A program made the translations under genes and the position numbers. From the sequence record PX216937.1: a stretch of DNA of 41,268 nucleotides; one strand, written 5' to 3'. Below the pieces are notes generated by a model. It searched no databases and had not been told where the DNA came from. It worked only from the letters and a program-made list of their open reading frames with translations. Shown here piece by piece: positions 766 through 40,179 of the stretch. Position 1 is the stretch's first letter. Each line of letters begins with the position of its first letter. This DNA is from a phage.

Positions 766-852
766 ATTTCTTCATGTATATCAGTAAGTTACTTAACGGT
801 AACGTAGCGGTACTAAGTGCTTACCTATGCACCTTTCCCGCATACTTATCTA

Positions 853-3626: not shown

Positions 3627-3740
3627 AAAACCTCCAGTTTAAAAGCGGGTCGTCCGTGACCCAAAGTTGTTACCATACATTGGTCATCGTGTAGTTAGCC
3701 TCTACCTCCACAACCTTCGATGACTCAATACCATTCTATT

Positions 3741-3775
3741 GATAAACTAACCCGCCGAAACGGGGTTTGTTGTTG
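3741..3775. terminator. GC hairpin followed by a T-rich run in the 157-bp spacer between gene 17 and gene 17.5 (candidate terminator/attenuator, orientation ambiguous)
   Basis: Top strand aacccgccgaaacggggtttgttgttgtt: short GC stem, small loop, then a T-rich tract (reads as a plus-strand terminator; a weaker minus-strand reading also exists). Confidence 0.3.
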
Positions 3776-3783
3776 TTATATTA

Positions 3784-6495
3784 TTAATCAGCGTAAAGCA
3801 TTAAGAACATAATAAGCTCTTCATAACGGATTCCATACCGTACACCAGCTGGTTTAACTGTTACAACTTCCTCTAACGTTTCTGGATTAATGCTTCTTTC
3901 AGAAGATTCTTCCCACTCGTCCTTGCACCAGAATGCGTAATCCTCTGGTTTAAGTCCATGCTTTGTTAGGATAGAACCAACGGTTTGCGCACCAACACCG
4001 AAGTGGATACGTGCAGATGCTTCCCCCTTAAGTACTATAGCGTCAGTAAATTTGTAGCGAATAATATTCTTACGAATTTCATTAGCCGCATTTCTTTCCG
4101 CACTCTCATTCACTGCTGGGGTTTTTTTCTTCAGTGTTTCATCGGAAGTAACAATGGTGCTTGAAGCAGCATAAATAGCACTCCACCGATGATCCGTGTA
4201 ACCAAATACCGTAGAGTTATCGACAGCAGGTAAAATACCATTATACCCTTCAATAATGAGGTCACCCTTAGGGTTACCAGAAGACGACTTACCATCATAA
4301 CTAGTAAGGGTGATCCCCTTAGTGCCCCCAGTAGTTGTTAACATAATACCAGCATTGGTAGCACCCAAGAGCTGAATATCGCTATTATCATTACGCAAAT
4401 CCTGTACAGGTGCTTCAAGTACAGTTGACGTGAATTTCCATTTCGTATCAGAAAAAAGTTCGACCGGTTGCACGTCATCCTTCTGGTACATCATGGCTTT
4501 AACACCGGAGTCCTTGCGTCTTACACCGATTGCGTTTGGTTGTGACCCGGACCAGTTAGACGCGAAAGTAAACCCGTCAAATTCCACTACAGACTCATAA
4601 GGATTGCTGGTATCGTTATTGATGGGTTCTGTAATAAAAATCCATCCCCAGTCGAAATAGTTATTATAAGTCCCTACGTTAGCATCTATCTGATACGCCC
4701 GGGTGCACACCTCCCCATAGTAACCGTAGAATCTCAGGTTCCCAGCAACTTGTGAGTCTGAGCTTACGGTTTTAACCACACGCACACCACACGGTACATC
4801 TGCTGGTCCAGTTGCTTTGGTTATATTCTCACAAGAACCACCAAACACACGAAGTGAGTCCGTGCTTTCAATCCAGAACGCACAGTTTCCCGTTACGTGA
4901 ATTGGGTTGTAAATAGTGATTCTGGTGTTGTTGTTGTCGCCTGAAACACTCCGGTTGAATCTAAACCCGCAGTCAACGTTTTCAAATACTGGATTTTTTA
5001 TGGTGTGATAATATGCAGCACTATTAGCCCCAAAAACTGTTGGTCCCGGTTGCAGTAACACCCCTACAGAGACGTCTGTCGCTTTTGGGTTGTTTAGCTG
5101 ACAAAACTGTTGCGATACACGTGCAGTAGTTTGTGTGAGGTCTTCCGGGCTTATTGCGTATGCCACTACTTCTGTGAAACCATCTGGATTTATTACCGTA
5201 GGGTTAGTTACGATGCAGAAATCATGGCTCATTCTTAAGCATGTGATACCAGAAGCTCCTGCTACGATTGTTGTTCCGGTGAAATCAATATACCTTGTAG
5301 ACGTAACATCCTGCGTATACGAGCCATCGAATTTCATTACAAGACTTTGTGTTATGCGATATCTCGCACCTACTCTTCCTGTTAATTTACCAAACGGCAC
5401 AATCTCCAACCACGACAATGCCGCCAGCATCGCGGAGGTATCATTAGTTACACCGTCGCCAATAGCACCGAACTCTTCAAATGATTTTATTGTCGTAGCC
5501 CGATGGGCAATCTGGTCAATTGTTGCACCATGCTTTGTTAGATTAGATCTAATAGACGCATCACCAACACTAACCCACTTCCCTAATCCAATCCCACCGG
5601 AAGTTTCAGGAGTTGAACCAGCAGGGATGTTCTTTGGAAGCGTACCATCCCAGCGGTAATACTCACCATTCTCTTCCCACAGTAGTACCTCGTTCCATGT
5701 TACAACGTTGAAGCCTTTCTCGAAGGAGCGACGGGTAACATAGCCAATTCGAGCAGATGCCTTGATACTATCAGCGATTCGTCGTGCTTCGTCCTCGCTA
5801 TCCTTAGCGTTTCCAGCATAGCTACCAGCAGATGCTGCATATTGTCCAGAAGTATTCTTGAACTGCTCGGCTTCATTCCGGAATTCGTTAGCCTCATCGC
5901 GCCATTGCTTTGCGTTCGTAGCGTGGGTGCTGGACTCGTTCTTAAAGCCCTCCGCTTGATTTCTGAAAGTATCAGCCTCATTGCGGAACTGTAGGGCCTC
6001 ATTACGTGCCTGCCATGAGTTCTGGTTCATGGTCTTAAGTTGACCAAACGGAACAGCGTCTCGGTTATCCACGGCGTTCACTAGGTTCATGATACGACGA
6101 CCACGTGCATCCAAGTGACCATCATTATTGACCCCAATGGTATCCGCAGTTAGGTCTCGTGCTTCTTCAGCAACGTGAAGCGTTTGAATCTGTGCAATGT
6201 TCAGGTCATATGCGCGAAGGATTGAGCCATCAGCAAAGTCAACCAGACGGTCTGTCGCGGAGGTGAAACGACGAATCTCAATGGAGTCATATCCATCAGC
6301 AGCCGTCCATGCACGAGTTGTAGTGATTTGTGTCTTAGTGGTGAACCGATAGTCCTGATTGAGAACCAGTTCCTTACGGTCTTTACCAATTAGAGTTACC
6401 GTCACAAACTTACGCGCTAAATATTCGAAGGTGATTGCAAAGTCTACAGCACCAGTCAGCGGGTAAGTCATTACGGTACGAATTTTAAGAGCCAT
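3784..6495 (-). CDS. 17: Tail fibre/tailspike (gp17): T7-like N-terminal attachment domain fused to a long divergent C-terminal module
   Basis: 903 aa versus 553 aa in T7. The first ~250 aa match recalled T7 gp17 (ARKFVTVTLIG, DGSILRAYDLN, VNNDGHLDARGRRI, NQNSWQARNEALQFRNEA); the rest does not. Contains GDGVTNDTSA and a C-terminal SDETLKKK motif. Confidence 0.9.
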   Translation of the reverse strand: MALKIRTVMTYPLTGAVDFAITFEYLARKFVTVTLIGKDRKELVLNQDYRFTTKTQITTTRAWTAADGYDSIEIRRFTSATDRLVDFADGSILRAYDLNIAQIQTLHVAEEARDLTADTIGVNNDGHLDARGRRIMNLVNAVDNRDAVPFGQLKTMNQNSWQARNEALQFRNEADTFRNQAEGFKNESSTHATNAKQWRDEANEFRNEAEQFKNTSGQYAASAGSYAGNAKDSEDEARRIADSIKASARIGYVTRRSFEKGFNVVTWNEVLLWEENGEYYRWDGTLPKNIPAGSTPETSGGIGLGKWVSVGDASIRSNLTKHGATIDQIAHRATTIKSFEEFGAIGDGVTNDTSAMLAALSWLEIVPFGKLTGRVGARYRITQSLVMKFDGSYTQDVTSTRYIDFTGTTIVAGASGITCLRMSHDFCIVTNPTVINPDGFTEVVAYAISPEDLTQTTARVSQQFCQLNNPKATDVSVGVLLQPGPTVFGANSAAYYHTIKNPVFENVDCGFRFNRSVSGDNNNTRITIYNPIHVTGNCAFWIESTDSLRVFGGSCENITKATGPADVPCGVRVVKTVSSDSQVAGNLRFYGYYGEVCTRAYQIDANVGTYNNYFDWGWIFITEPINNDTSNPYESVVEFDGFTFASNWSGSQPNAIGVRRKDSGVKAMMYQKDDVQPVELFSDTKWKFTSTVLEAPVQDLRNDNSDIQLLGATNAGIMLTTTGGTKGITLTSYDGKSSSGNPKGDLIIEGYNGILPAVDNSTVFGYTDHRWSAIYAASSTIVTSDETLKKKTPAVNESAERNAANEIRKNIIRYKFTDAIVLKGEASARIHFGVGAQTVGSILTKHGLKPEDYAFWCKDEWEESSERSINPETLEEVVTVKPAGVRYGIRYEELIMFLMLYAD

Positions 6496-6540
6496 AATGT
6501 ACCTCCTTAGTTGGGTATGATAAAGGGAAGCTGTGTGAGC

Positions 6541-6563
6541 CTTCCCAATAGTGAGTCGTATTG
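6541..6563 (-). promoter_or_regulatory. Phage RNAP promoter (phi17-like), CAATACGACTCACTATTGGGAAG
   Basis: Reverse-complement promoter match immediately upstream of gene 17. Confidence 0.8.
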
Positions 6564-6564
6564 A

Positions 6565-9500
6565 TTACTTCTTGTCAGACTTAAGGTGAACACCATTGGC
6601 CTCATAGAACTTGATGAGCATCTGTTGGGAGATTGGGTCGTTAGGAACCATCTCTCGGTGAGCATTCATTAAGCCAGTCATCATCTCACGCTCGGTCACT
6701 TTGTTAGGAGCCGTAAGGACACCATAAGCATTTCGACCAGCAGCAAGAGTGGCACCAGCGAACCCAAGAGCAGGAACCTGTTCACCAATAGCGCCCATAA
6801 TGGAATCACCCATGTCACGAGAAGTTACCGCCTTATTGCGTTCACGCTTGTCATCACCTTTCGGTAGAATCGTAGAGCGAACCATAAGACCTTGGTCGTA
6901 GCCCGCAGCACCCATAAAGAAGTTAGCGATACTCAACGGAGACCCAAGGTGTGAACTTCGGGAAGCCGCAGCGTAGGCAATCATCTTAGGGTCCAGAGCT
7001 TTCTTCAAGTAATCCTTCTGTTGCTCTTTAGGAAGACCAGCAGCTTTCAAGTGAGCCTGTGCCACGTAATAGGAACCAGCAAGACCACCAGAGATAGCAT
7101 AGGTCAGCGCCATGTCCATAGCGCGATGGTTCTTAAAGGCTTCGTTGCCAGAGCGGATAAACTTAGAGTTCATCGACTTGATGACAAACGATTTAAACTG
7201 AAGGACTAACTTAGCGGTAGCACCAAACGCATGGGAATCCTGTAAGGAAACCTTATGAGGTCGGAGCATCGTCTCATCAGCAACCTTATCAGCTAAACGC
7301 CATAAGTCCATAGCACGAGGGTCATTAGCCAGCTTACGCTTATCCTTGAAGGTGAACTTACCGTCTTCACCACGAGTCACGTTCTCTCGGATGAGAGCCT
7401 GAATGCCTTCCCACTGTTCCTTAGAGATACTCGCAGACTTCAGCATGTCACCTTTAATCCACTTGTTGGCACCCTTGCCTGTAATGGCATGAGTTACCAC
7501 ATCACCCATCACGCCCTGCCGGGCCATGTCCAGAAGGTAGTTTGACGTACCATTGAGGAACTTGGTCAGAGGTGAGCGAGCCGCCAGTTCTTGAGTTGTG
7601 TGCTTAATAGAACCAACAACCTTAGCTGCAACATCAGGTGTATCAGTTGACTCACGGAGTCGCTGAATGATGTCTTGACGAGTCGGTCGGATTAACTGGT
7701 CGAACTCTTTACCGAACACCATAGAGTGGAGTTCTTTGAGTTCACTACCGGAGACTGGCTTGTTGCGGAACGCTAAGTCACGCAGAGCCGGAATGCCATG
7801 AAGCATCGCACGAATGTTACCCTTCGCCAACATACCGGAGATTTCAGTTAGGTTCTGCAAGCCCATATATGCGTTCTTCGTAAAGAAGGACATATCGGAC
7901 AGAGCGCGAACCATAGTGTCACCTACAGTATCCTGATTACGTCGAGCACGACCAGTGAGAATCTTAACGGTATCCTTAAGTGCTTCCACTTCACCTTTCA
8001 TCGTGCCCTTCCCTTCTGACTTCTTATCGAGAGCCATAATGGAATCCTTAAGTTCAGCAGTCGTCTTCCCTGTGCCACCCATGATAGCAATATCTCCATC
8101 AACACGGCGGTCATAGGCTGGCATAACGTGTTTCATATCGAAGTCACGTAAGTCATTCACAGAGAACTGTTGTCCGTTAGGGAGCGTTACAGGCATGTCA
8201 GAATCGAACAGGTTACGGGCTTCAAGGAACGAGTTGTTCTCAATACCCACGAGACCCTCAATGTTATCGTCAATGACACTTGAAGAGTTGAACTCATCTG
8301 TCTTCGCAATACCATAAGCCTTATCGCTGGCATGTTTCATCACCATCTCTTCGGTTACAGCCTTCGGGTCGATGCCCAAGGTCTCCGCTAAGTGCTCATC
8401 TACACGAGCCTTAACTTCTGGACGTGAACGGTAAGAGGTCATCCAGCTTGCAGCGATTGCTTCCTGTAAACCATCAGAGCCACCAAGAGCCTGTGAGTAC
8501 AACTGCTTGGCTTCCCGTGAGTACACATGAGGAACGTAAGTCCCTTTGTGACGACTGTTAGGGAAGATGGAAGTTGCCTTGTTACCGAACATCGACGGGT
8601 TCTCCATCATCTCACGCTTGAGGTCAAAGTGTTCCTTCATGATGTCCATCACCTTACGCTCTGCCTTGGTCAAGTTAGCCTGAAGTTCAGGACGCTCGAT
8701 AGCCACAGCAACACGACGATAGATTTCTTGACGGGCACCTTGAGCACCACTCTTGAACATACCCACAGACCACTCGGGGTCAGCCATAGCTTCCTTCATT
8801 GCACCATAGAGGTCATTGTAGGTTCGCTGGTTGGTACTGTGTAGTCGCTCTTTGATGTCAGATGCGGTAGCACCGAACTTACCATGTGAGCCAGACTCCA
8901 TCCCTGTAGGTGAGCGCACTAAGTCCTTAGCGAGTCCACGGATTTCGGCATGTTCAGAACGTAGAGTTCTCAGACCGATTTCACTCAGACCACGCATAGG
9001 CAATCCCCAAGCAGCACGTTCAGGGTCCACTTCAGCGAACTCTCTGGCTGTCATAGGGTTCGCTAGGTTGGTATCACTAATAATGGAACCATCACGCAGC
9101 ACTACCGCACCCGGTTCAGTTTCGAGAGGTGCATACTCAACGCCGTTGTGCTGTGAGAACACTCGGTCTTCACTAGGAGGCATACGACTTGCATCATATC
9201 CACCAGTGTTACGGGCAGTCTCACGAGCCTCGAAGCGCATCTGTGTAGCAGAAAACGGGTTCTCAATCTGTTCAGCGCCAGACTTACGGAGACCCGCAGC
9301 AACACCATCAGCAACCGCAGTGAGTCCCCCAGCAAGCAGCATACCAGCAAGAGCAGCTTCCGCATAGTGAGCATGACCACCAGCAATGGATGTGCGCAGA
9401 CCCTCAGAGGCAACGTTGAGTGCACCAGCTTGAGCACCAACCATCAACGCCTTGTTCACCAGCTTGAATCCATTGGCTGTAGTCCCTGCTAGTGGGACGT

Positions 9501-22373: not shown

Positions 22374-23260
22374 AGGTAAATCTCCTTGTCGATAAAGTTG
22401 TACTCTTCGAAACGCAGGATGCGAGCCATCTGGCCCTGCTTAATGATTTCCTGCTCGGTCATCCCAGCTTTCGCGCCAAGTGTCACAATGGCTTCCCATA
22501 GGGTTCGCTCACCAATGTCAACCTTTTTCCATTCGAGAACTGTCTGTCCCTTACGAGCACCAGACTTGAAAGTTTTCTCAACCTGTTCAAAGGCATATGG
22601 GTTCTCCAGCCACTCAGCGGTAGTCTCTCCCCAGCCCGGAATGCCACCATAGCCATCTGTCAAGTCACCTTTAATGGTCTGATAGATGTGCCAGTAGTCG
22701 GCAGTCGTTTGGTCTTGAGTCAAGATGTTACCAGTAGTGCACCACAAGAAGTCACAATCAGGGATGGTCTTAAAGTCCTTATCACAGGAGACCAGCACAG
22801 CCTTATTGAAACCAAAATGTTTAGCACCAGACCCAATGATTCCCATTACGTCATCACCCTCTAAGCGAGGCTCAAGGATAGACGTCCAGTCCTCACAGGC
22901 TTGAACACGCTCGATGAACGCACGGTAGCCTACAGGCTTACGGGATGCCTTACGGTTCTCCTTGTAGGTAGGGTCCACCAGTTCCTTACGCCAGTTCACA
23001 GAGTCAGTGAAGGCCAATACGATAGGCGCATCACGCCAAGCCTTCTTACGACCAGCATAGGACTTGATGGAGTCTACCAGAATGTTCCACGCTTTCCCGT
23101 GGTCACACTCTAACGACCAGCAGTCATCTCCCCAGTCGGTTTCTACTTCACTTGCTGCCATTGCCTGAAAGACAAGCCAGTCACCGTCCATCACTAGAAC
23201 ACCTTTGTCGGATTTACCTTGGCGAAGTTCATAATATTGTTTAAGAGTTAAAGCAGCCAT
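22346..23260 (-). CDS. 6: 5'-3' exonuclease (gp6)
   Basis: Start at the internal Met (MAALTLKQYYELR...); VMDGDWLVFQAM, APIVLAFTDSVNWRKELVDP, CDKDFKTIP, CDFLWCTTGNILTQ and AKAGMTE.IIKQGQMARILRF match recalled T7 gp6. Confidence 0.95.
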   Translation of the reverse strand: MAALTLKQYYELRQGKSDKGVLVMDGDWLVFQAMAASEVETDWGDDCWSLECDHGKAWNILVDSIKSYAGRKKAWRDAPIVLAFTDSVNWRKELVDPTYKENRKASRKPVGYRAFIERVQACEDWTSILEPRLEGDDVMGIIGSGAKHFGFNKAVLVSCDKDFKTIPDCDFLWCTTGNILTQDQTTADYWHIYQTIKGDLTDGYGGIPGWGETTAEWLENPYAFEQVEKTFKSGARKGQTVLEWKKVDIGERTLWEAIVTLGAKAGMTEQEIIKQGQMARILRFEEYNFIDKEIYLWSPEQLRS

Positions 23261-23261
23261 G

Positions 23262-23648
23262 TTAGTCCTCCACATGTTGATATGATTTGTAGTTCCTGAT
23301 AGCTAGAACGCCCTTGTGATCAATGCCATAATCAGCACCAACCTTGCGGGAACTTCTTGAGTCCTTACGGATAGCTCTCACCTGTTCATCAGTCAGCTTG
23401 GCCTTTGAGTGTCTACCGCGTGTCACGCAGTCCATCACATTGTCCCGCTGGGTTCCCAACTCAAGGTGTTCAGGGTTGACGCACAAAGGGTTATCGCACT
23501 TGTGGCGAACCACAAGCCCATCAGGGATAGCCCCAAAGGTTTGAGTGTATACCAAACGATGTGCAGCCCACTTAACTCCATCAACCTGAATCTGACCATA
23601 GCCACGGCCCGTTGTGTAGCCCGTCCAGTTAATACACTCAGTAACCAT
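23262..23648 (-). CDS. HNH endonuclease (homing-endonuclease-like), at the T7 gene 5.9 position
   Basis: Start at an internal Met whose ATG overlaps the gp5.7 stop (TAATG). Contains ...GYGQIQVDGVKWAAHRLVY...VVRHKCDNPLCVNPEHLELGTQRDN..., a typical HNH signature. The track's 147-aa start overlaps gp5.7. Confidence 0.8.
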   Translation of the reverse strand: MVTECINWTGYTTGRGYGQIQVDGVKWAAHRLVYTQTFGAIPDGLVVRHKCDNPLCVNPEHLELGTQRDNVMDCVTRGRHSKAKLTDEQVRAIRKDSRSSRKVGADYGIDHKGVLAIRNYKSYQHVED

Positions 23649-23857
23649 TAGACACAACCTCCCATCTTCTTCAGGAAACGGACACCAGCGCCTGTTACTT
23701 CCCAAGCGCCAGCATTACGCCCATCAACCGATAGGCAAGAGATATGGCCACGACTCGCAGCCTCAGCCACCAGTGACGCATTGTTGCGCACATAGTTCGA
23801 CTGAAAGGTCTTAGGGCAGCTTTTGATAGCCGCCAGTACACGTAGATAATCACCCAT
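23648..23857 (-). CDS. 5.7: gp5.7
   Basis: 69 aa, MGDYLRVLAAIKSCPKTFQSNYVRNNASLVAEAASRGHISC...; near-identical to recalled T7 gp5.7. Confidence 0.9.
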   Translation of the reverse strand: MGDYLRVLAAIKSCPKTFQSNYVRNNASLVAEAASRGHISCLSVDGRNAGAWEVTGAGVRFLKKMGGCV

Positions 23858-34102: not shown

Positions 34103-34251
34103 TAGAGTGCCTCCTTCCAGTTGCGTTTCTCAGAGTTGCCACGTTGTGTCTTGTGGCGTTTCTTCATGCGGTCTTTACGTTCCTGCCATTCAGCACCATG
34201 TTCATTGATTACGTTGTTGCGCTTAGTGGTCGGTTCAAAGTTGGTACGCAT
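34102..34251 (-). CDS. 1.1: gp1.1-like small basic protein (49 aa, MRTNFEPTTKRNNVINEHGAEWQERKDRMKKRHKTQRGNSEKRNWKEAL)
   Basis: Found by translation (under 60 aa, not in the track); stop overlaps the gene 1.2 ATG (TAATG); basic composition and position resemble T7 gp1.1. Confidence 0.55.
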   Translation of the reverse strand: MRTNFEPTTKRNNVINEHGAEWQERKDRMKKRHKTQRGNSEKRNWKEAL

Positions 34252-34269
34252 AATATTGTTTCCTTCTGT

Positions 34270-34400
34270 GTAGTTAGTGGCAGTTAATCATGAAGGCCAC
34301 CACATCCATCCTTTCCGGTTCGACGGTGTGATTTTCCTACGTCCTACTCACTGGTTTGACAGCTATTCGGTAACGGGAGGTGATGACCTTGAGTTTAACT
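34270..34400 (-). promoter_or_regulatory. Extended RNase III-type hairpin region (R1.1-like)
   Basis: Starts and ends with the same arms as the 27320/33741 elements (ttaatcatgaaggccacc ... gatgaccttgagtttaac) but has about 70 extra bp inside. Confidence 0.45.
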
Positions 34401-34407
34401 TTCAGTG

Positions 34408-34430
34408 TTTCCCATTAGTGAGTCGTATTG
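34408..34430 (-). promoter_or_regulatory. Phage RNAP promoter (phi1.1B-like), CAATACGACTCACTAATGGGAAA
   Basis: Promoter match; the stop codon and last five codons (DNTTH) of the upstream ORF are encoded within it. Confidence 0.7.
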
Positions 34431-34972
34431 TCTGCAACCTTACGTGCAATCTCAATGCGACCAGCTACGTCTTTCTTATAATAGGTGAACTCTTTGCGCT
34501 CACCATCAGTGCACGTCTGTGTCAGCAGGTAGCGGTCCGATTGTTCTTTCCAGTGCAAACATGTAACCTCTTTGCCGCAAGACCCTATGCCTAGCTTGAA
34601 CTCAGTGCGCTTCCATCCAGCATCCGGGATGTGAGCAGTAAACTTGATAGACGTGATGTCACTGTGAGTGTACTCACGGATGGTACTCTTTGCCTCTTTA
34701 AGTTCCTTGCGGTACTCCACTGCCTCAGCGCGTAGACGCTCAATGAGTTCTCGTTGGTTCGACATGTCATATTGTTGTTCGAACTCTAAGGTACGGATTC
34801 GACCAGCCAGTTCCTGCTTCTCTCGCCATCCGTCTTCAAGTCTCTCTTTGAGTGCGTGAGAGTTCTTCTCTTCTTTGATTAGCTTGGTGAGAAATACCTT
34901 TGAGCGATTGTAGTATGTTGCTGCAAGAATGGTTGCCACGAGAGCGCCTACTGAAGTGATGAAAGTAAACAT
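34415..34972 (-). CDS. Hypothetical membrane-anchored protein with coiled-coil and Cys-rich C-terminal region (gene 1.05 position, between phi1.1A and phi1.1B)
   Basis: 185 aa from the Met preceded by AAGAGGAAA: N-terminal hydrophobic helix (FTFITSVGALVATILAATYY), charged heptad-like middle, C-terminal C-x6-C-x2-H...C-x3-E. No T7 counterpart that I recognise. Confidence 0.6.
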   Translation of the reverse strand: MFTFITSVGALVATILAATYYNRSKVFLTKLIKEEKNSHALKERLEDGWREKQELAGRIRTLEFEQQYDMSNQRELIERLRAEAVEYRKELKEAKSTIREYTHSDITSIKFTAHIPDAGWKRTEFKLGIGSCGKEVTCLHWKEQSDRYLLTQTCTDGERKEFTYYKKDVAGRIEIARKVADNTTH

Positions 34973-35032
34973 GATTATGTTTCCTCTTAAAGTTAAACTT
35001 AAAGTTATCTTAAAGTAGGGAAACCCCAAGGG

Positions 35033-39128: not shown

Positions 39129-39324
39129 AGAAGATACCTACCTTGTTAGCCTTAAAGCGCCCGTTGAGTTCACGGACTGTGAATCGTGGTAGAAAGCCAT
39201 ACTTCAGGTGCGAGAAGTTAGCCTTGTGTACCTTGAGACCCTTGCGGAAGTCCCGAAGGAAGTACGCCCCAATCAGAGCGTACATTGTGATTACGAAGAG
39301 TGCGACCATTAGACCACCTTCCAA
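39112..39324 (-). CDS. Hypothetical small early protein with N-terminal hydrophobic segment
   Basis: 70-aa ORF (the true start may be the internal Met MVALFVITMYALIGAYFL); overlaps the SAMase stop by a few codons. Confidence 0.45.
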   Translation of the reverse strand: MEGGLMVALFVITMYALIGAYFLRDFRKGLKVHKANFSHLKYGFLPRFTVRELNGRFKANKVGIFYVATH

Positions 39325-39764
39325 CCACGTCCGAACTCATCGACCGTGTAGTTACCAGTCAGTTCAGCATCTTGTGCGACCATCTGGAAAGACCCAATGC
39401 GCTCAGTCTTCCAACCACCCAAGCCACCAGCAAAGATTAGTGCGGCGCTGTGAGTCTGTGCCTTATAGACCAGCACACAGTCTTGCTCATAGTCGTTACA
39501 AGCCAACCGTGCGACACTTACAGCTTGTGCCTTGGTTGTGCAGCGTACTCGGATGGTTTGCTCTTCAGCGGGTGACTCCATGCCAGCCTCATGGTAACAA
39601 CCTGTCAAGTCAGTAGACTCAACACTGCCATATTCCATCGGTGCATTGCGTAAGCTGTTGACTAAGCGACGATGACGGCTAAGGTTATCCAAGTGGTGCA
39701 GGTTAGAGCGGAACGCTGATACCAGTACATAGAATACGTTTGCAGGCTCGTTAGTGTAAATCAT
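39309..39764 (-). CDS. S-adenosyl-L-methionine hydrolase/lyase (T3-type SAMase-like anti-restriction protein)
   Basis: 151 aa, MIYTNEPANVFYVLVSAFRSNL...YGSVESTDLTGCY...VRC..KAQA..VARLACN..EQDCVLVYK.QTH...TIDEFGR.W.V; strong resemblance to the T3 gene 0.3 SAMase as I recall it (152 aa). Confidence 0.8.
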   Translation of the reverse strand: MIYTNEPANVFYVLVSAFRSNLHHLDNLSRHRRLVNSLRNAPMEYGSVESTDLTGCYHEAGMESPAEEQTIRVRCTTKAQAVSVARLACNDYEQDCVLVYKAQTHSAALIFAGGLGGWKTERIGSFQMVAQDAELTGNYTVDEFGRGWKVV

Positions 39765-39786
39765 GATAGTGCCTCATTATGTGTGT

Positions 39787-39840
39787 GTTAGTGATAATCA
39801 AAAAGGCCACTCGCTAGGAGCGACCTTGAGTTTATCACTC
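39787..39840 (-). promoter_or_regulatory. RNase III-type hairpin (R0.5-like) between the Ocr and SAMase-like genes
   Basis: gataatcaaaaaggccactcgctaggagcgaccttgagtttatcac; imperfect hairpin of the same family as 40210..40265. Confidence 0.5.
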
Positions 39841-40179
39841 AGCAGACTCTTCGACTTCCTCAAGATATTCGTCCAGTAAGTCCTCAGCGTCTTCCCAAAG
39901 GTCAATCGTTAATTGCTCATAGATACGTGCTTGCAGAATACGGATTACATCCTTGGTGTCCGGCATCAGACCAGAATCCTCAAACTCAAGGTTAATGCCT
40001 TCGCTTGCCATTACGCTGAAAACCTCGCTGTAGTAGTGCGGAACAGCATTATCAGCAGCCATGTGCACTGCATCGTGCAGGCCATCAGTGTCACGGATGT
40101 CATCATAACGGATGTTTTCTTTCAGCATTTCGTAAGCGTGGTCAAAAACGTTGTTATAAGTCATGTTAGACATAGCCAT
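39835..40179 (-). CDS. 0.3: Ocr (overcome classical restriction) DNA-mimic anti-restriction protein
   Basis: 114 aa, [48 protein letters not shown]...[56 protein letters not shown]; near-identical to recalled T7 Ocr. Confidence 0.97.

What the first reader, a model, noticed from the sequence alone, without database searches (positions are those of the whole stretch)
3784..5745. Tail fibre gene carries a long non-T7 C-terminal module (about 650 aa) with beta-helix-like and chaperone-like motifs
gp17 is 903 aa. The first ~250 residues are T7-like (tail-attachment domain), but the remainder is unrelated to the T7 receptor-binding tip. It is rich in Gly/Asn/Thr/Ser repeats typical of right-handed beta-helix tailspikes, contains a GDGVTNDTSA motif reminiscent of pectate-lyase-fold depolymerases, and ends with an SDETLKKK-containing segment resembling the self-cleaving intramolecular chaperone domain (peptidase S74 type) of endosialidase-like tailspikes. 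This suggests a modular host-range swap, possibly to a capsule- or O-antigen-degrading tailspike.
Basis: partly seen in the sequence, partly recalled or inferred. Interest (0 to 1): 0.6.

Follow-up and report, generated by a model that had tools for sequence, protein, structure and literature searches.

The report
T7-like phage with borrowed O-antigen tailspike
The tail-fibre gene of this T7-like phage keeps its T7 attachment end but has swapped its receptor-binding end for a sugar-cutting tailspike with a self-removing folding domain, a known kind of host-range swap, most likely aimed at the E. coli O166-type O-antigen.

Summary

- **aa 1-251:** T7 gp17 tail-attachment domain plus coiled coil.
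- **aa 249-312:** Tail_spike_N domain.
- **aa 784-903:** S74-type intramolecular chaperone. The T5/K1F catalytic set is intact (D759, R770, T783, S784, K789).

The cassette (window ~3627..6051) replaces the Berlinvirus-type fibre. The same module occurs in a near-identical GenBank phage (vB_EcoS_P1338, 95% aa), in Kuttervirus TSP1 genes, in P22-like and lambdoid prophages, and in a siphovirus contig. It is flanked by the conserved junction and terminator motifs already described as tailspike recombination hotspots.

New here is a receptor prediction.
- Five of the seven complete E. coli genomes carrying the module are O166, against 18 O166 genomes among 5,426.
- Citrobacter strains with a collinear O166-like O-antigen cluster also carry it.
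- O-antigen-modifying genes sit beside it in three prophages.

Overall this is a new member of a well-known kind. Enzyme activity, autocleavage and receptor are all untested.

The parts
3784..6495 (-). gp17 tailspike gene, 903 aa (99.7 kDa precursor)
   Evidence: ORF list. 95% aa identity to gp17 of Escherichia phage vB_EcoS_P1338.
6013..6495 (-). aa 1-161: T7 gp17 N-terminal tail-attachment domain (PF03906)
   Evidence: Pfam 185 bits, E=7e-55. PDB 7boz, 8dsp and 8e4g. aa 1-148 (window 6052-6495) is the part still about 90.6% nt identical to Berlinvirus JSS1.
5752..6012 (-). aa 162-248: Ala/Asn/Glu-rich coiled-coil shaft, T7/T3-like
   Evidence: Aligned to T7 gp17 up to aa 251. Composition A 18.9%, E 11.1%, N 10%. 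About 84% nt identity to T3 and phiA1122 over nt 196-681.
5560..5751 (-). aa 249-312: Tail_spike_N domain (PF18668), shared with Ackermannviridae TSPs and G7C gp63.1
   Evidence: Pfam 66 bits, E=3e-18. PDB 4oj5, 5w6f, 5w6h and 4qnl.
5538..5671 (-). Junction DNA stretch (gp17 nt 825-958) where Kuttervirus similarity begins; widely conserved candidate recombination hotspot
   Evidence: Kuttervirus TSP similarity starts at window 5658. The 134 nt match 517 phage records at 686 places across Kayfuna-, Kutter-, Agtre- and siphovirus genomes. Corresponds to motifs one and two of Pas et al. 2023 (PMC10408124).
4648..5466 (-). aa 344-616: right-handed parallel β-helix, the predicted glycan-binding and cleaving domain. 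It starts with GDGVTNDTSA (window 5431-5460). Invariant D404, E451, D520, E543, E556 and D580; D546 conserved in all but one homologue
4147..4647 (-). aa 617-783: C-terminal β-rich region and stalk leading to the cleavage site (poorly modelled as a monomer). Contains D759, R770 and T783
   Evidence: pLDDT below 50 for much of this span. aa 708-783 align to PDB 9vvr, and aa 750-783 give a weak Pfam End_tail_spike C-terminal match. D759, R770 and T783 are invariant.
3787..4146 (-). aa 784-903: S74-type C-terminal intramolecular chaperone domain (13.6 kDa). Catalytic Ser784 (window 4144-4146) and Lys789 (window 4129-4131). Predicted cleavage between T783 and S784, leaving an 86.1 kDa mature protein
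   Evidence: phmmer: 7y5s 3.6e-18, 9vvr 5e-16, 4uw8 2e-11, 3gw6 1e-10, 3gud 1e-7. Foldseek 3gw6 E=5e-8; 3gud TM 0.66. pLDDT 76-93. Pfam S74 sub-threshold here, but hit by 21 of 24 relatives. Masses.
3751..3764 (-). GC-rich hairpin 20 nt after the stop codon (terminator-like), part of the imported cassette
   Evidence: Terminator scan. The hairpin and about 70 nt of flank are conserved with siphovirus contig L010 and P1338, and partly with phage 38. Matches 'motif three' of Pas et al. 2023.
3627..6051 (-). Extent of the block that is not homologous to the Berlinvirus backbone (the replaced cassette)
   Evidence: blastn against JSS1: identity ends at window 6052 and resumes at window 3626, the holin start.

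Best explanation
gp17 is a chimeric, trimeric tailspike.

**N-terminal part (aa 1-248, T7/Berlinvirus type).** By analogy with T7, the tail-attachment domain and coiled coil fix six trimers to the tail.

**Imported part (aa ~249/280-903).** It consists of a Tail_spike_N domain, a right-handed β-helix and a C-terminal S74 intramolecular chaperone. The β-helix binds and most likely cleaves a surface polysaccharide, so the virion can work its way down to the outer membrane. The chaperone drives trimer folding and then removes itself: Ser784, activated by Lys789, cleaves the T783-S784 bond, with R770 of a neighbouring chain, D759 and T783 completing the site as in T5 pb1. The result is an 86-kDa mature spike and a 13.6-kDa fragment.

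**Origin.** The cassette was acquired by recombination at the conserved Tail_spike_N junction and at the downstream terminator motif. It comes from a pool shared with Kuttervirus TSP1 genes, P22-like and lambdoid prophages, and siphoviruses.

**Receptor.** The most likely substrate is the O166-type O-antigen: E. coli O166, the homologous Citrobacter freundii-complex O-type, and possibly the closely related Salmonella O66.

**Status of each step.**
- Shown by computation: domain architecture, fold, conserved catalytic residues, mosaic breakpoints, and the association with O166 hosts.
- Inferred only: trimer state, cleavage, glycosidase or lyase activity, and the actual receptor.
For: **Architecture and homology.**
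- Architecture.
- T7 N-terminus: E=9e-113.

**S74 domain.**
- Homology to four solved chaperone domains, with register-exact Ser/Lys.
- The roles of Asp1239, Arg1250, Thr1263, Ser1264 and Lys1269 in T5 pb1 are described in PMC4690869 section 3.7. The counterparts D759, R770, T783, S784 and K789 are invariant in 12 diverse homologues and at least 90% conserved in 24.
- 21 of 24 relatives hit Pfam S74, best E 6.7e-16.

**Mosaic origin.**
- Breakpoints. Junction stretch in 517 phage records. Shared 3' terminator flank.
- Published recombination-motif model: PMC10408124.
- The module sits behind T7-type, Tail_spike_N-only and P22 head-binding N-termini.

**O-antigen receptor.**
- gtrA/gtrB/GtrII genes lie directly after the tailspike in an E. 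coli lambdoid prophage and a C. freundii prophage. An Acyl_transf_3 gene follows it in a P22-like C. freundii prophage.
- 5 of the 7 complete E. coli genomes holding the module carry O166 wzx/wzy, which only 18 of 5,426 genomes have. Hypergeometric P=4.6e-12. They include O166:H15 and O166:H27 strains and three different prophage contexts.
- O166 Wzy has essentially one outside relative, a 57%-identical Citrobacter polymerase. It lies in a collinear cluster whose six specific genes are 57-69% identical.
- At least four Citrobacter genomes carry both that Wzy and a tailspike of this family.
Against: - No experiment supports cleavage, activity or receptor.
- Pfam S74 is below the gathering score for this protein (19.7-20.2 against 22 bits).
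- The model is a monomer with mean pLDDT 71, and aa 617-780 are unreliable. The position of the invariant acidic residues relative to a substrate groove could not be checked.
- The O166 link is indirect. O166-host copies are only 69-76% identical in the β-helix. The closest prophage copies (C. freundii P0009, 91%) come from assemblies whose O-type I could not determine.
- Two module-bearing E. coli genomes (23CRST032 and MLI104K2, the latter only a 10% fragment) lack O166 wzx/wzy.
- The genomes are not phylogenetically independent, so the P-value overstates the evidence.
- The record for P1338 gives its host only as 'Escherichia coli'.
Confidence: 0.8

Rival explanations
1. The spike is a capsule (K-antigen) depolymerase rather than an O-antigen enzyme, like the K1F endosialidase or the Klebsiella KP32-type depolymerases, which share the T7 N-terminus and the S74 chaperone.
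For: - The architecture is the same as in K1F-type spikes.
- There are weak Pfam matches to endosialidase stalk and N-terminal pieces.
- Many structural neighbours are capsule depolymerases, for example Depo32, K1 lyase, K5 lyase and Acinetobacter TSPs.
- The β-helix fold alone does not discriminate between substrates.
Against: - There is no β-propeller sialidase domain; PF12217 is absent.
- The module co-occurs with O166 wzx/wzy and not with any capsule locus that I saw.
- O-antigen-modifying gtr and acyltransferase genes flank it in prophages.
- Its relatives in Kuttervirus and P22-like phages belong to groups whose characterised spikes target O-antigens (PMC8432352, PMC10408124).
Confidence: 0.1
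2. The β-helix is a non-catalytic adhesin: it binds the glycan without cleaving it, or modifies it (for example by deacetylation) rather than depolymerising it.
For: - No CAZy-type family is assigned by sequence. Only 8 of 24 relatives hit PF12708, and this protein does not.
- The active site is not mapped.
Against: - Six acidic residues (D404, E451, D520, E543, E556, D580), plus R515, R525, H533 and K575, are invariant down to members at about 33-39% identity. D546 is conserved in all but one compared homologue. That pattern is typical of an active site.
- There is no esterase (SGNH) domain.
- Nearly all characterised tailspikes of this architecture are depolymerases (general knowledge; PMC10408124 introduction).
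Confidence: 0.08
3. The receptor is an O-antigen other than O166-type: for example a distinct Citrobacter or Salmonella O-type, or an E. coli serogroup not sampled here. On this view the O166 association applies only to the more distant (69-76%) sub-clade.
For: - The β-helix is 91-96% identical to C. freundii prophage and siphovirus copies of unknown host O-type, but only 69-76% to O166-host copies.
- Kuttervirus carriers were isolated on Salmonella.
- 23CRST032 carries the module without O166 genes.
Against: - Pas et al. treat at least 30% RBD identity as one specificity subtype (PMC10408124).
- An O166-like cluster exists in the C. freundii complex and co-occurs with the module there.
- The Salmonella O66 antigen is reported as closely related to E. 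coli O166 (Liu et al. 2010, PMID 20185508, title as cited in PMC10370184).
- Taken together, the Citrobacter and Salmonella carriers are compatible with one antigen family.
Confidence: 0.3

Closest known systems
gp17 of Escherichia phage vB_EcoS_P1338 (GenBank PP882707.1, XBW77981.1)
   Same: 903 aa, 95% aa identity with no gaps, same genome type (97% nt over the backbone), same position before the holin gene.
   Different: 41 substitutions, mostly in the stalk and chaperone; the β-helix is 98% identical. It is annotated only as 'non-contractile tail fiber protein', and I found no paper on it. The two genomes also differ by small insertions elsewhere.
Kuttervirus (Ackermannviridae) TSP1 of Salmonella phages SS9, SS3, SeKF_64 and 38, and of Escherichia phage PhaxI
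   Same: aa 246-903 align end to end at about 70-72% aa identity and about 71-74% nt. They share the Tail_spike_N, β-helix, stalk and S74 chaperone (87.5% in the chaperone).
   Different: The N-terminus is the Kuttervirus anchor for a branched four-spike complex, not a T7 tail adaptor. The virion is a 157-kb myovirus. The papers I read assign no receptor to this TSP1 subtype.
Bacteriophage K1F endosialidase (endoNF; chaperone domain PDB 3gw6)
   Same: T7-like podovirus, gp17-type N-terminal adaptor, C-terminal S74 intramolecular chaperone with the Ser-x4-Lys site.
   Different: The K1F catalytic domain is a six-bladed β-propeller sialidase acting on the K1 capsule (from recall). Here the catalytic domain is a β-helix and the predicted substrate is an O-antigen. 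No PF12217 match.
T5 L-shaped tail fibre pb1 C-terminus (PDB 4uw8) and Klebsiella phage Kp7 gp51 (PDB 7y5s)
   Same: Homologous chaperone domain (E = 2e-11 and 4e-18). The catalytic residues Asp, Arg, Thr, Ser and Lys align one to one.
   Different: The receptor-binding parts upstream of the cleavage site are unrelated to this module's β-helix by sequence.
PDB 9vvr, 843-aa 'Tail spike protein' of Kayfunavirus-type coliphages (cluster P0040-P0056)
   Same: Same overall plan: T7 N-terminus, Tail_spike_N (about 80% identical over aa 217-318), a GDGVT-type β-helix start, and an S74 chaperone.
   Different: The central catalytic domain is not detectably similar by sequence, implying a different specificity. 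No paper was found for the entry.
P22-like and lambdoid prophage tailspikes of E. coli O166 strains (e.g. WP_367763970.1 in O166:H15 JNE21-009) and of the Citrobacter freundii complex (P0007-P0009, cluster P0013)
   Same: Same β-helix, stalk and chaperone module (60-79% overall; β-helix 69-91%).
   Different: The N-termini are the P22 head-binding domain (PF09008) or siphovirus-type adaptors. These are temperate elements with adjacent O-antigen-modification genes.

Membership tests
T7 gp17 tail fibre (Phage_T7_tail, PF03906) | N-terminal tail-attachment domain scoring above Pfam's gathering score | tested here: met
   185.4 bits against cut-off 25.2, aa 1-161. E=9e-113 to T7 gp17.
T7 gp17 tail fibre (Phage_T7_tail, PF03906) | T7-type C-terminal shaft and tip (receptor-binding) domain | tested here: not met
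   The alignment to T7 gp17 ends at aa 251/252. The backbone relative JSS1 loses similarity after gp17 nt 444.
Peptidase S74 / C-terminal intramolecular chaperone domain (PF13884) | Match to the Pfam model above the gathering score | tested here: inconclusive
   19.7-20.2 bits against cut-off 22 for this protein. However, 21 of 24 aligned relatives match at E<=0.01, best 6.7e-16.
Peptidase S74 / C-terminal intramolecular chaperone domain (PF13884) | Sequence homology to solved chaperone domains (K1F endoNF, T5 pb1, phi29 gp12) | tested here: met
   phmmer: 7y5s 3.6e-18, 4uw8 2.2e-11, 3gw6 1.2e-10, 3gud 1.1e-7.
Peptidase S74 / C-terminal intramolecular chaperone domain (PF13884) | Catalytic Ser and Lys five residues apart, plus the upstream Thr, Arg and Asp of the T5 pb1 site | tested here: met
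   S784/K789, T783, R770 and D759 align with S1264/K1269, T1263, R1250 and D1239 (PMC4690869). Invariant in homologues.
Peptidase S74 / C-terminal intramolecular chaperone domain (PF13884) | Chaperone fold | tested here: met
   aa 790-903 modelled at pLDDT 76-93. Foldseek 3gw6 E=4.7e-8; 3gud TM(target) 0.66, rmsd 3.4 Å.
Peptidase S74 / C-terminal intramolecular chaperone domain (PF13884) | Autoproteolytic release of the domain after trimer folding | not testable with these tools
   Needs SDS-PAGE or mass spectrometry of wild type against S784A.
Right-handed parallel β-helix tailspike depolymerases (pectin-lyase fold) | β-helix fold of the central domain | tested here: met
Right-handed parallel β-helix tailspike depolymerases (pectin-lyase fold) | Conserved acidic catalytic residues in a substrate groove | tested here: inconclusive
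   D404, E451, D520, E543, E556 and D580 are invariant; D546 is conserved in all but one compared homologue.
Right-handed parallel β-helix tailspike depolymerases (pectin-lyase fold) | Homotrimer with polysaccharide-degrading activity | not testable with these tools
   Only a monomer could be modelled. Activity needs biochemistry.
Tail_spike_N (PF18668) adaptor domain of Ackermannviridae / G7C-type spikes | Match above the gathering score | tested here: met
   66 bits against cut-off 25, aa 249-312.
Endosialidase (GH58, K1F/K1E type) | β-propeller sialidase catalytic domain (PF12217) | tested here: not met
   No match in this protein or in any of its 23 aligned relatives. Only sub-threshold hits to the stalk end (PF12219, 16.4 bits) and to the N-terminal extension (PF12218, 14.4 bits).
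Same RBP subtype as Kuttervirus SS9/PhaxI TSP1 and the O166-host prophage tailspikes (criterion of Pas et al. 2023) | At least 30% aa identity across the receptor-binding domain | tested here: met
   71.6% to SS9 TSP1; 60-71% to E. coli O166 prophage spikes; β-helix 69-76%. Criterion quoted from PMC10408124.
Same RBP subtype as Kuttervirus SS9/PhaxI TSP1 and the O166-host prophage tailspikes (criterion of Pas et al. 2023) | Hosts of the subtype consistently share one serogroup | tested here: inconclusive
   5 of 7 E. coli genomes are O166. At least 4 Citrobacter genomes have an O166-like cluster. The hosts of this phage, of P1338, of the Kutterviruses and of the closest C. freundii copies are untyped, and 23CRST032 is an exception.

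The most novel reading that the evidence does not exclude
This module is the receptor-binding and depolymerase domain of a so-far undescribed O166-type O-antigen specificity class. That class would cover E. coli O166, a homologous Citrobacter freundii-complex O-type and perhaps Salmonella O66. The module circulates as one cassette among five virion architectures: T7-like podovirus, Kuttervirus myovirus, P22-like and lambdoid prophages, and a lytic-type siphovirus. The phage in this window would then be a ready-made T7-chassis reagent against O166 ETEC and atypical diarrhoeagenic strains. It would also assign the orphan TSP1 subtype of SS9/SS3/PhaxI to a receptor.
Probability: 0.5. Interest if true: 0.4.

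Novelty: new member of a known kind. Interest (0 to 1): 0.3.

Why it matters
The finding itself is a textbook case of tail-fibre modularity. A T7-type adaptor fused to a β-helix depolymerase with an S74 chaperone is already well documented, for example in K1F and in Kayfunavirus spikes, and in the recombination-motif model of Pas et al. A 95%-identical protein is already in GenBank.

Its practical value lies in the receptor prediction. O166 is a recurrent ETEC and atypical diarrhoeagenic E. coli serogroup, and none of the tailspike-specificity surveys I could read lists an O166 spike. If confirmed, the module would add one serogroup to the catalogue used for host-range prediction, diagnostics and phage engineering. 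It would also explain why Salmonella Kutterviruses and Citrobacter prophages carry the same spike.

Tried and rejected
1. **Literature on P1338 and PDB 9vvr.** Nothing relevant was found.
2. **TSP1 subtype or receptor for SS9/SS3/PhaxI in Sørensen et al. 2021.** The main text lists other TSPs of these phages but gives no receptor for this one. The single held supplement has no entries for them.
3. **Typing the exception strain 23CRST032.** Three 40-50 kb windows missed its O-antigen locus, because the genome is inverted relative to K-12 and interrupted by islands. I abandoned the attempt.
4. **Reading Liu et al. 2010 on O166/O66.** The paper is not held. Only its title is used, as cited elsewhere.
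6. **ORFs downstream of the P22-like tailspikes in E. coli O166 (368 aa and 267 aa).** No Pfam match, so no conclusion about O-antigen modification there.
7. **Endosialidase membership.** Considered because of weak Pfam hits; rejected because the β-propeller domain is absent.
8. **A second, docked tailspike (as in SP6, K1-5 or KP32-type phages).** Rejected. The genome has the plain T7 gene order, the holin follows gp17 directly, and there is no further spike-sized ORF.
9. **The 174-aa antisense ORF inside gp17 (5135..5659, + strand).** Treated as a chance ORF and not examined further.
Full report
**1. Observation**

The window is a complete T7-like genome read on its reverse strand. It is 97% identical over the first 25 kb (97% of that query covered) to Escherichia phage vB_EcoS_P1338. 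It is about 90-92% identical to Berlinvirus-type phages such as JSS1, vB_YenP_WW1, SPLA4 and FE44.

gp17 is an ATG-started 903-aa ORF at 3784..6495 on the minus strand. The finding's interval, 3784-5745, is exactly aa 251-903. GDGVTNDTSA is at aa 346-355 and SDETLKKK at aa 784-791. The description is therefore accurate. Only the phrase 'repeats' is loose: the region is moderately G/T/S/N-rich, and I saw no literal repeats (no repeat search was run).

**2. Anatomy**

| Residues | Feature | Evidence |
|---|---|---|
| 1-161 | Phage_T7_tail (PF03906) | 185 bits |
| 1-251 | T7 gp17 attachment domain plus coiled coil | E=9e-113 to T7 gp17 aa 1-252 |
| 249-312 | Tail_spike_N (PF18668) | 66 bits |
| 784-848 | Peptidase_S74 (PF13884) | 19.7 bits, cut-off 22 |

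The Tail_spike_N domain is shared with CBA120 TSP1, TSP3 and TSP4 and with G7C gp63.1.

I built a 24-sequence alignment of homologues at 33-89% identity and used it for an AlphaFold2 model of aa 251-903. Mean pLDDT is 71. The Tail_spike_N domain, a long β-rich core (aa ~344-616) and the last 115 residues are confident. aa 617-780 are poor, as expected for a segment that folds only in the trimer.

The GDGVT(N/D)DT motif is the first turn of this β-helix. Eight of the 24 relatives reach Pfam's Pect-lyase_RHGA_epim model. Six acidic residues (D404, E451, D520, E543, E556, D580), plus R515, R525, H533 and K575, are invariant even in members at about 33-39% identity. D546 is conserved in all but one compared homologue. 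These are candidate catalytic residues, but I could not map them in three dimensions.

**3. The chaperone-protease**

The last 168 residues hit four families of solved intramolecular chaperones by sequence:

| PDB | Protein | E-value |
|---|---|---|
| 7y5s | Kp7 gp51 | 3.6e-18 |
| 4uw8 | T5 pb1 | 2.2e-11 |
| 3gw6 | K1F endoNF | 1.2e-10 |
| 3gud | phi29 gp12 | 1.1e-7 |

In those alignments our T783-S784-D-E-T-L-K789 lies on T1263-(S1264A)-D-A-R-L-K1269 of T5 pb1. It also lies on the corresponding segment of the K1F construct 3gw6, where I take the Ala from recall to be the S911A substitution.

Garcia-Doval et al. describe the T5 site as follows. Ser1264 is activated by Lys1269, there is a kink at Thr1263, and Arg1250 of a neighbouring chain sits between Asp1239 and Thr1263, so cleavage depends on correct trimer formation. 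The serine leaves with the chaperone (PMC4690869).

All five positions are present here (D759, R770, T783, S784, K789). They are invariant in 12 diverse homologues. 21 of 24 relatives hit PF13884, with a best E of 6.7e-16.

The predicted products are an 86.1-kDa mature spike (aa 1-783) and a 13.6-kDa fragment. This step is inferred, not shown.

**4. How it got there**

- Against Berlinvirus JSS1, identity (90.6%) runs through gene 16 and gp17 nt 1-444. It then vanishes and resumes (91.6%) exactly at the holin start, so window 3627..6051 is the replaced block.
- Kuttervirus TSP genes (SS9, PhaxI, phage 38) align from gp17 nt 838 (aa 280, inside Tail_spike_N) to the stop codon. For phage 38 the alignment continues 33 nt beyond it.
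- The 134-nt junction stretch occurs in 517 phage records at 686 places. These include Kayfunaviruses, several TSP paralogues per Kuttervirus genome, Agtrevirus AV101 and 45-kb siphoviruses.
- The 3' flank holds a GC-rich hairpin 20 nt after the stop plus about 70 nt more. It is shared with a siphovirus contig whose spike is 89% identical, and in part with phage 38.
- This matches the conserved motifs before and after the receptor-binding domain that Pas et al. proposed as cross-genus recombination hotspots (PMC10408124).

The same β-helix, stalk and chaperone module sits behind at least four kinds of N-terminus:
- T7 adaptor (this phage and P1338);
- Kuttervirus TSP1 anchor;
- P22 head-binding domain, PF09008;
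- siphovirus or lambdoid adaptors.

**5. What it probably binds**

In complete E. coli genomes the module is rare: 7 of 5,426. One carrier is typed O166:H15 in its record. Another, E7476, is O166:H27 according to PMC5149512.

I extracted the O166 wzy-wzx stretch from JNE21-009 and searched it. Only 18 genomes have it, and 5 of the 7 module carriers are among them. The hypergeometric P is 4.6e-12, which is optimistic because genomes are not independent. The five cover three prophage contexts:
- an intact P22-like prophage at argW;
- an IS3-truncated remnant at the same site;
- a lambdoid prophage.

O166 Wzy has essentially one relative outside E. coli, a 57%-identical polymerase of the Citrobacter freundii complex. 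It lies in a collinear galF-wzx-GT2-wzy-GT-GT-GT-galE-gnd cluster whose six specific genes are 57-69% identical to those of O166.

Cluster membership shows that at least four Citrobacter genomes carry both this Wzy and a prophage spike of the family. They are Cpo032, Cpo148, a C. portucalensis chromosome of 4,853,120 bp and a C. freundii chromosome of 5,067,279 bp.

O-antigen-modifying genes sit directly after the spike gene in three prophages. gtrA/gtrB/GtrII follow it in an E. coli lambdoid prophage and a C. freundii prophage. An Acyl_transf_3 gene follows it in a P22-like C. freundii prophage. This arrangement is usual for phages that use the O-antigen as receptor.

The Salmonella O66 antigen is reported to be closely related to E. 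coli O166 (Liu et al. 2010, title as cited in PMC10370184 and PMC5643014). That would account for the Salmonella Kuttervirus copies.

Caveats:
- Our β-helix is 96-98% identical to the siphovirus and P1338 copies and 91% to a C. freundii prophage copy of unknown O-type. It is only 69-76% identical to the copies in typed O166 hosts.
- 23CRST032 carries the module without O166 genes.
- I put the O166-type assignment for this particular phage at roughly 0.5-0.6.

**6. Comparison with what is known**

The plan (T7 adaptor, coiled coil, Tail_spike_N, catalytic domain, S74 chaperone) is that of K1F and of many Kayfunavirus spikes, including PDB 9vvr, which aligns over three of the four modules. It is not an endosialidase, because the β-propeller is absent.

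By the 30%-identity criterion of Pas et al. it belongs to one subtype with the SS9, SS3, PhaxI and phage 38 TSP1 genes and with the O166-host prophage spikes. Neither Pas et al. nor Sørensen et al. lists O166 or assigns this TSP1 subtype a receptor. Horizontal exchange of gp17 in Studiervirinae is itself documented (PMC7693777, found).

**7. Verdict**

The feature is real, functional-looking and conserved, but it is an ordinary example of a well-understood phenomenon. A near-identical, uncharacterised copy is already public.

The added value of this second look is threefold:
- the exact cleavage site and catalytic set;
- the mapped recombination boundaries;
- a specific, testable receptor prediction (O166-type O-antigen).

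Interest 0.3; new member of a known kind.

Noticed in passing
window 34129-34969 (ORF 34415..35029, minus strand, 204 aa): An insertion of about 840 nt relative to P1338, between the RNA polymerase and ligase genes. It encodes a protein whose C-terminal part matches the T3 gene 1.05 family (PF25755, E=1.5e-29) behind a coiled-coil-like N-terminal extension.
   Followed up: partly
window 23255-23651 (ORF 23262..23705, minus strand); also window 766-842: An HNH_3 homing-endonuclease ORF (E=2.5e-16) is present here but absent at this site in P1338. Conversely, P1338 has a 'putative homing endonuclease' after the terminase gene that the window lacks. The two near-identical phages therefore differ by mobile endonuclease genes.
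   Followed up: partly
window 39266-39845 (ORF 39309..39764, minus strand, 151 aa): The early region encodes an S-adenosylmethionine lyase (T3 gp0.3 type, PF23780, E=1e-39). This stretch does not align with P1338, whose record annotates an ocr-like anti-restriction protein in the early region. The two phages may use different anti-restriction strategies.
   Followed up: partly
L003 (Escherichia phage PhaxI NC_019452.1) 6449-8692; L002 (Salmonella phage 38) about 5900-7870: PhaxI's copy of this TSP1 is annotated as 474 aa because of five in-frame stops at codons 474-490, although homology continues in the same frame to the normal end. Phage 38's copy is split over three frames. These are either pseudogenes or sequencing errors.
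   Followed up: partly
L008 (E. coli OZ197100.1) 4705-7611; L009 (E. coli PCP07014) 4536-8883: In two O166 strains the prophage tailspike gene is cut by insertion sequences: IS3 removes the N-terminal part in one, and an IS66/ISEc8 element truncates the C-terminus in the other. The otherwise identical prophage in 23CRST032 has the intact 698-aa gene.
   Followed up: no
L019-L028 (Citrobacter freundii-complex contigs), e.g. L019 6541-16970: A Citrobacter O-antigen gene cluster is collinear with E. coli O166 (wzx, GT2, wzy and three GTs at 57-69% aa identity), with galE apparently fragmented into several short ORFs. None of the papers I read describes this cross-genus O-antigen relationship.
   Followed up: partly
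window 5135..5659 (plus strand): A 174-aa GTG-started ORF lies antisense to the β-helix-coding part of gp17. There is no evidence that it is a gene.
   Followed up: no
window 3751-3764: The post-gp17 hairpin (CCCGTTTCGGCGGG) has a shorter, imperfect stem compared with the CCCCGCTTCGGCGGGG version in the siphovirus and phage 38 copies. It is followed by a weak T-run, so it may be a decaying terminator.
   Followed up: no
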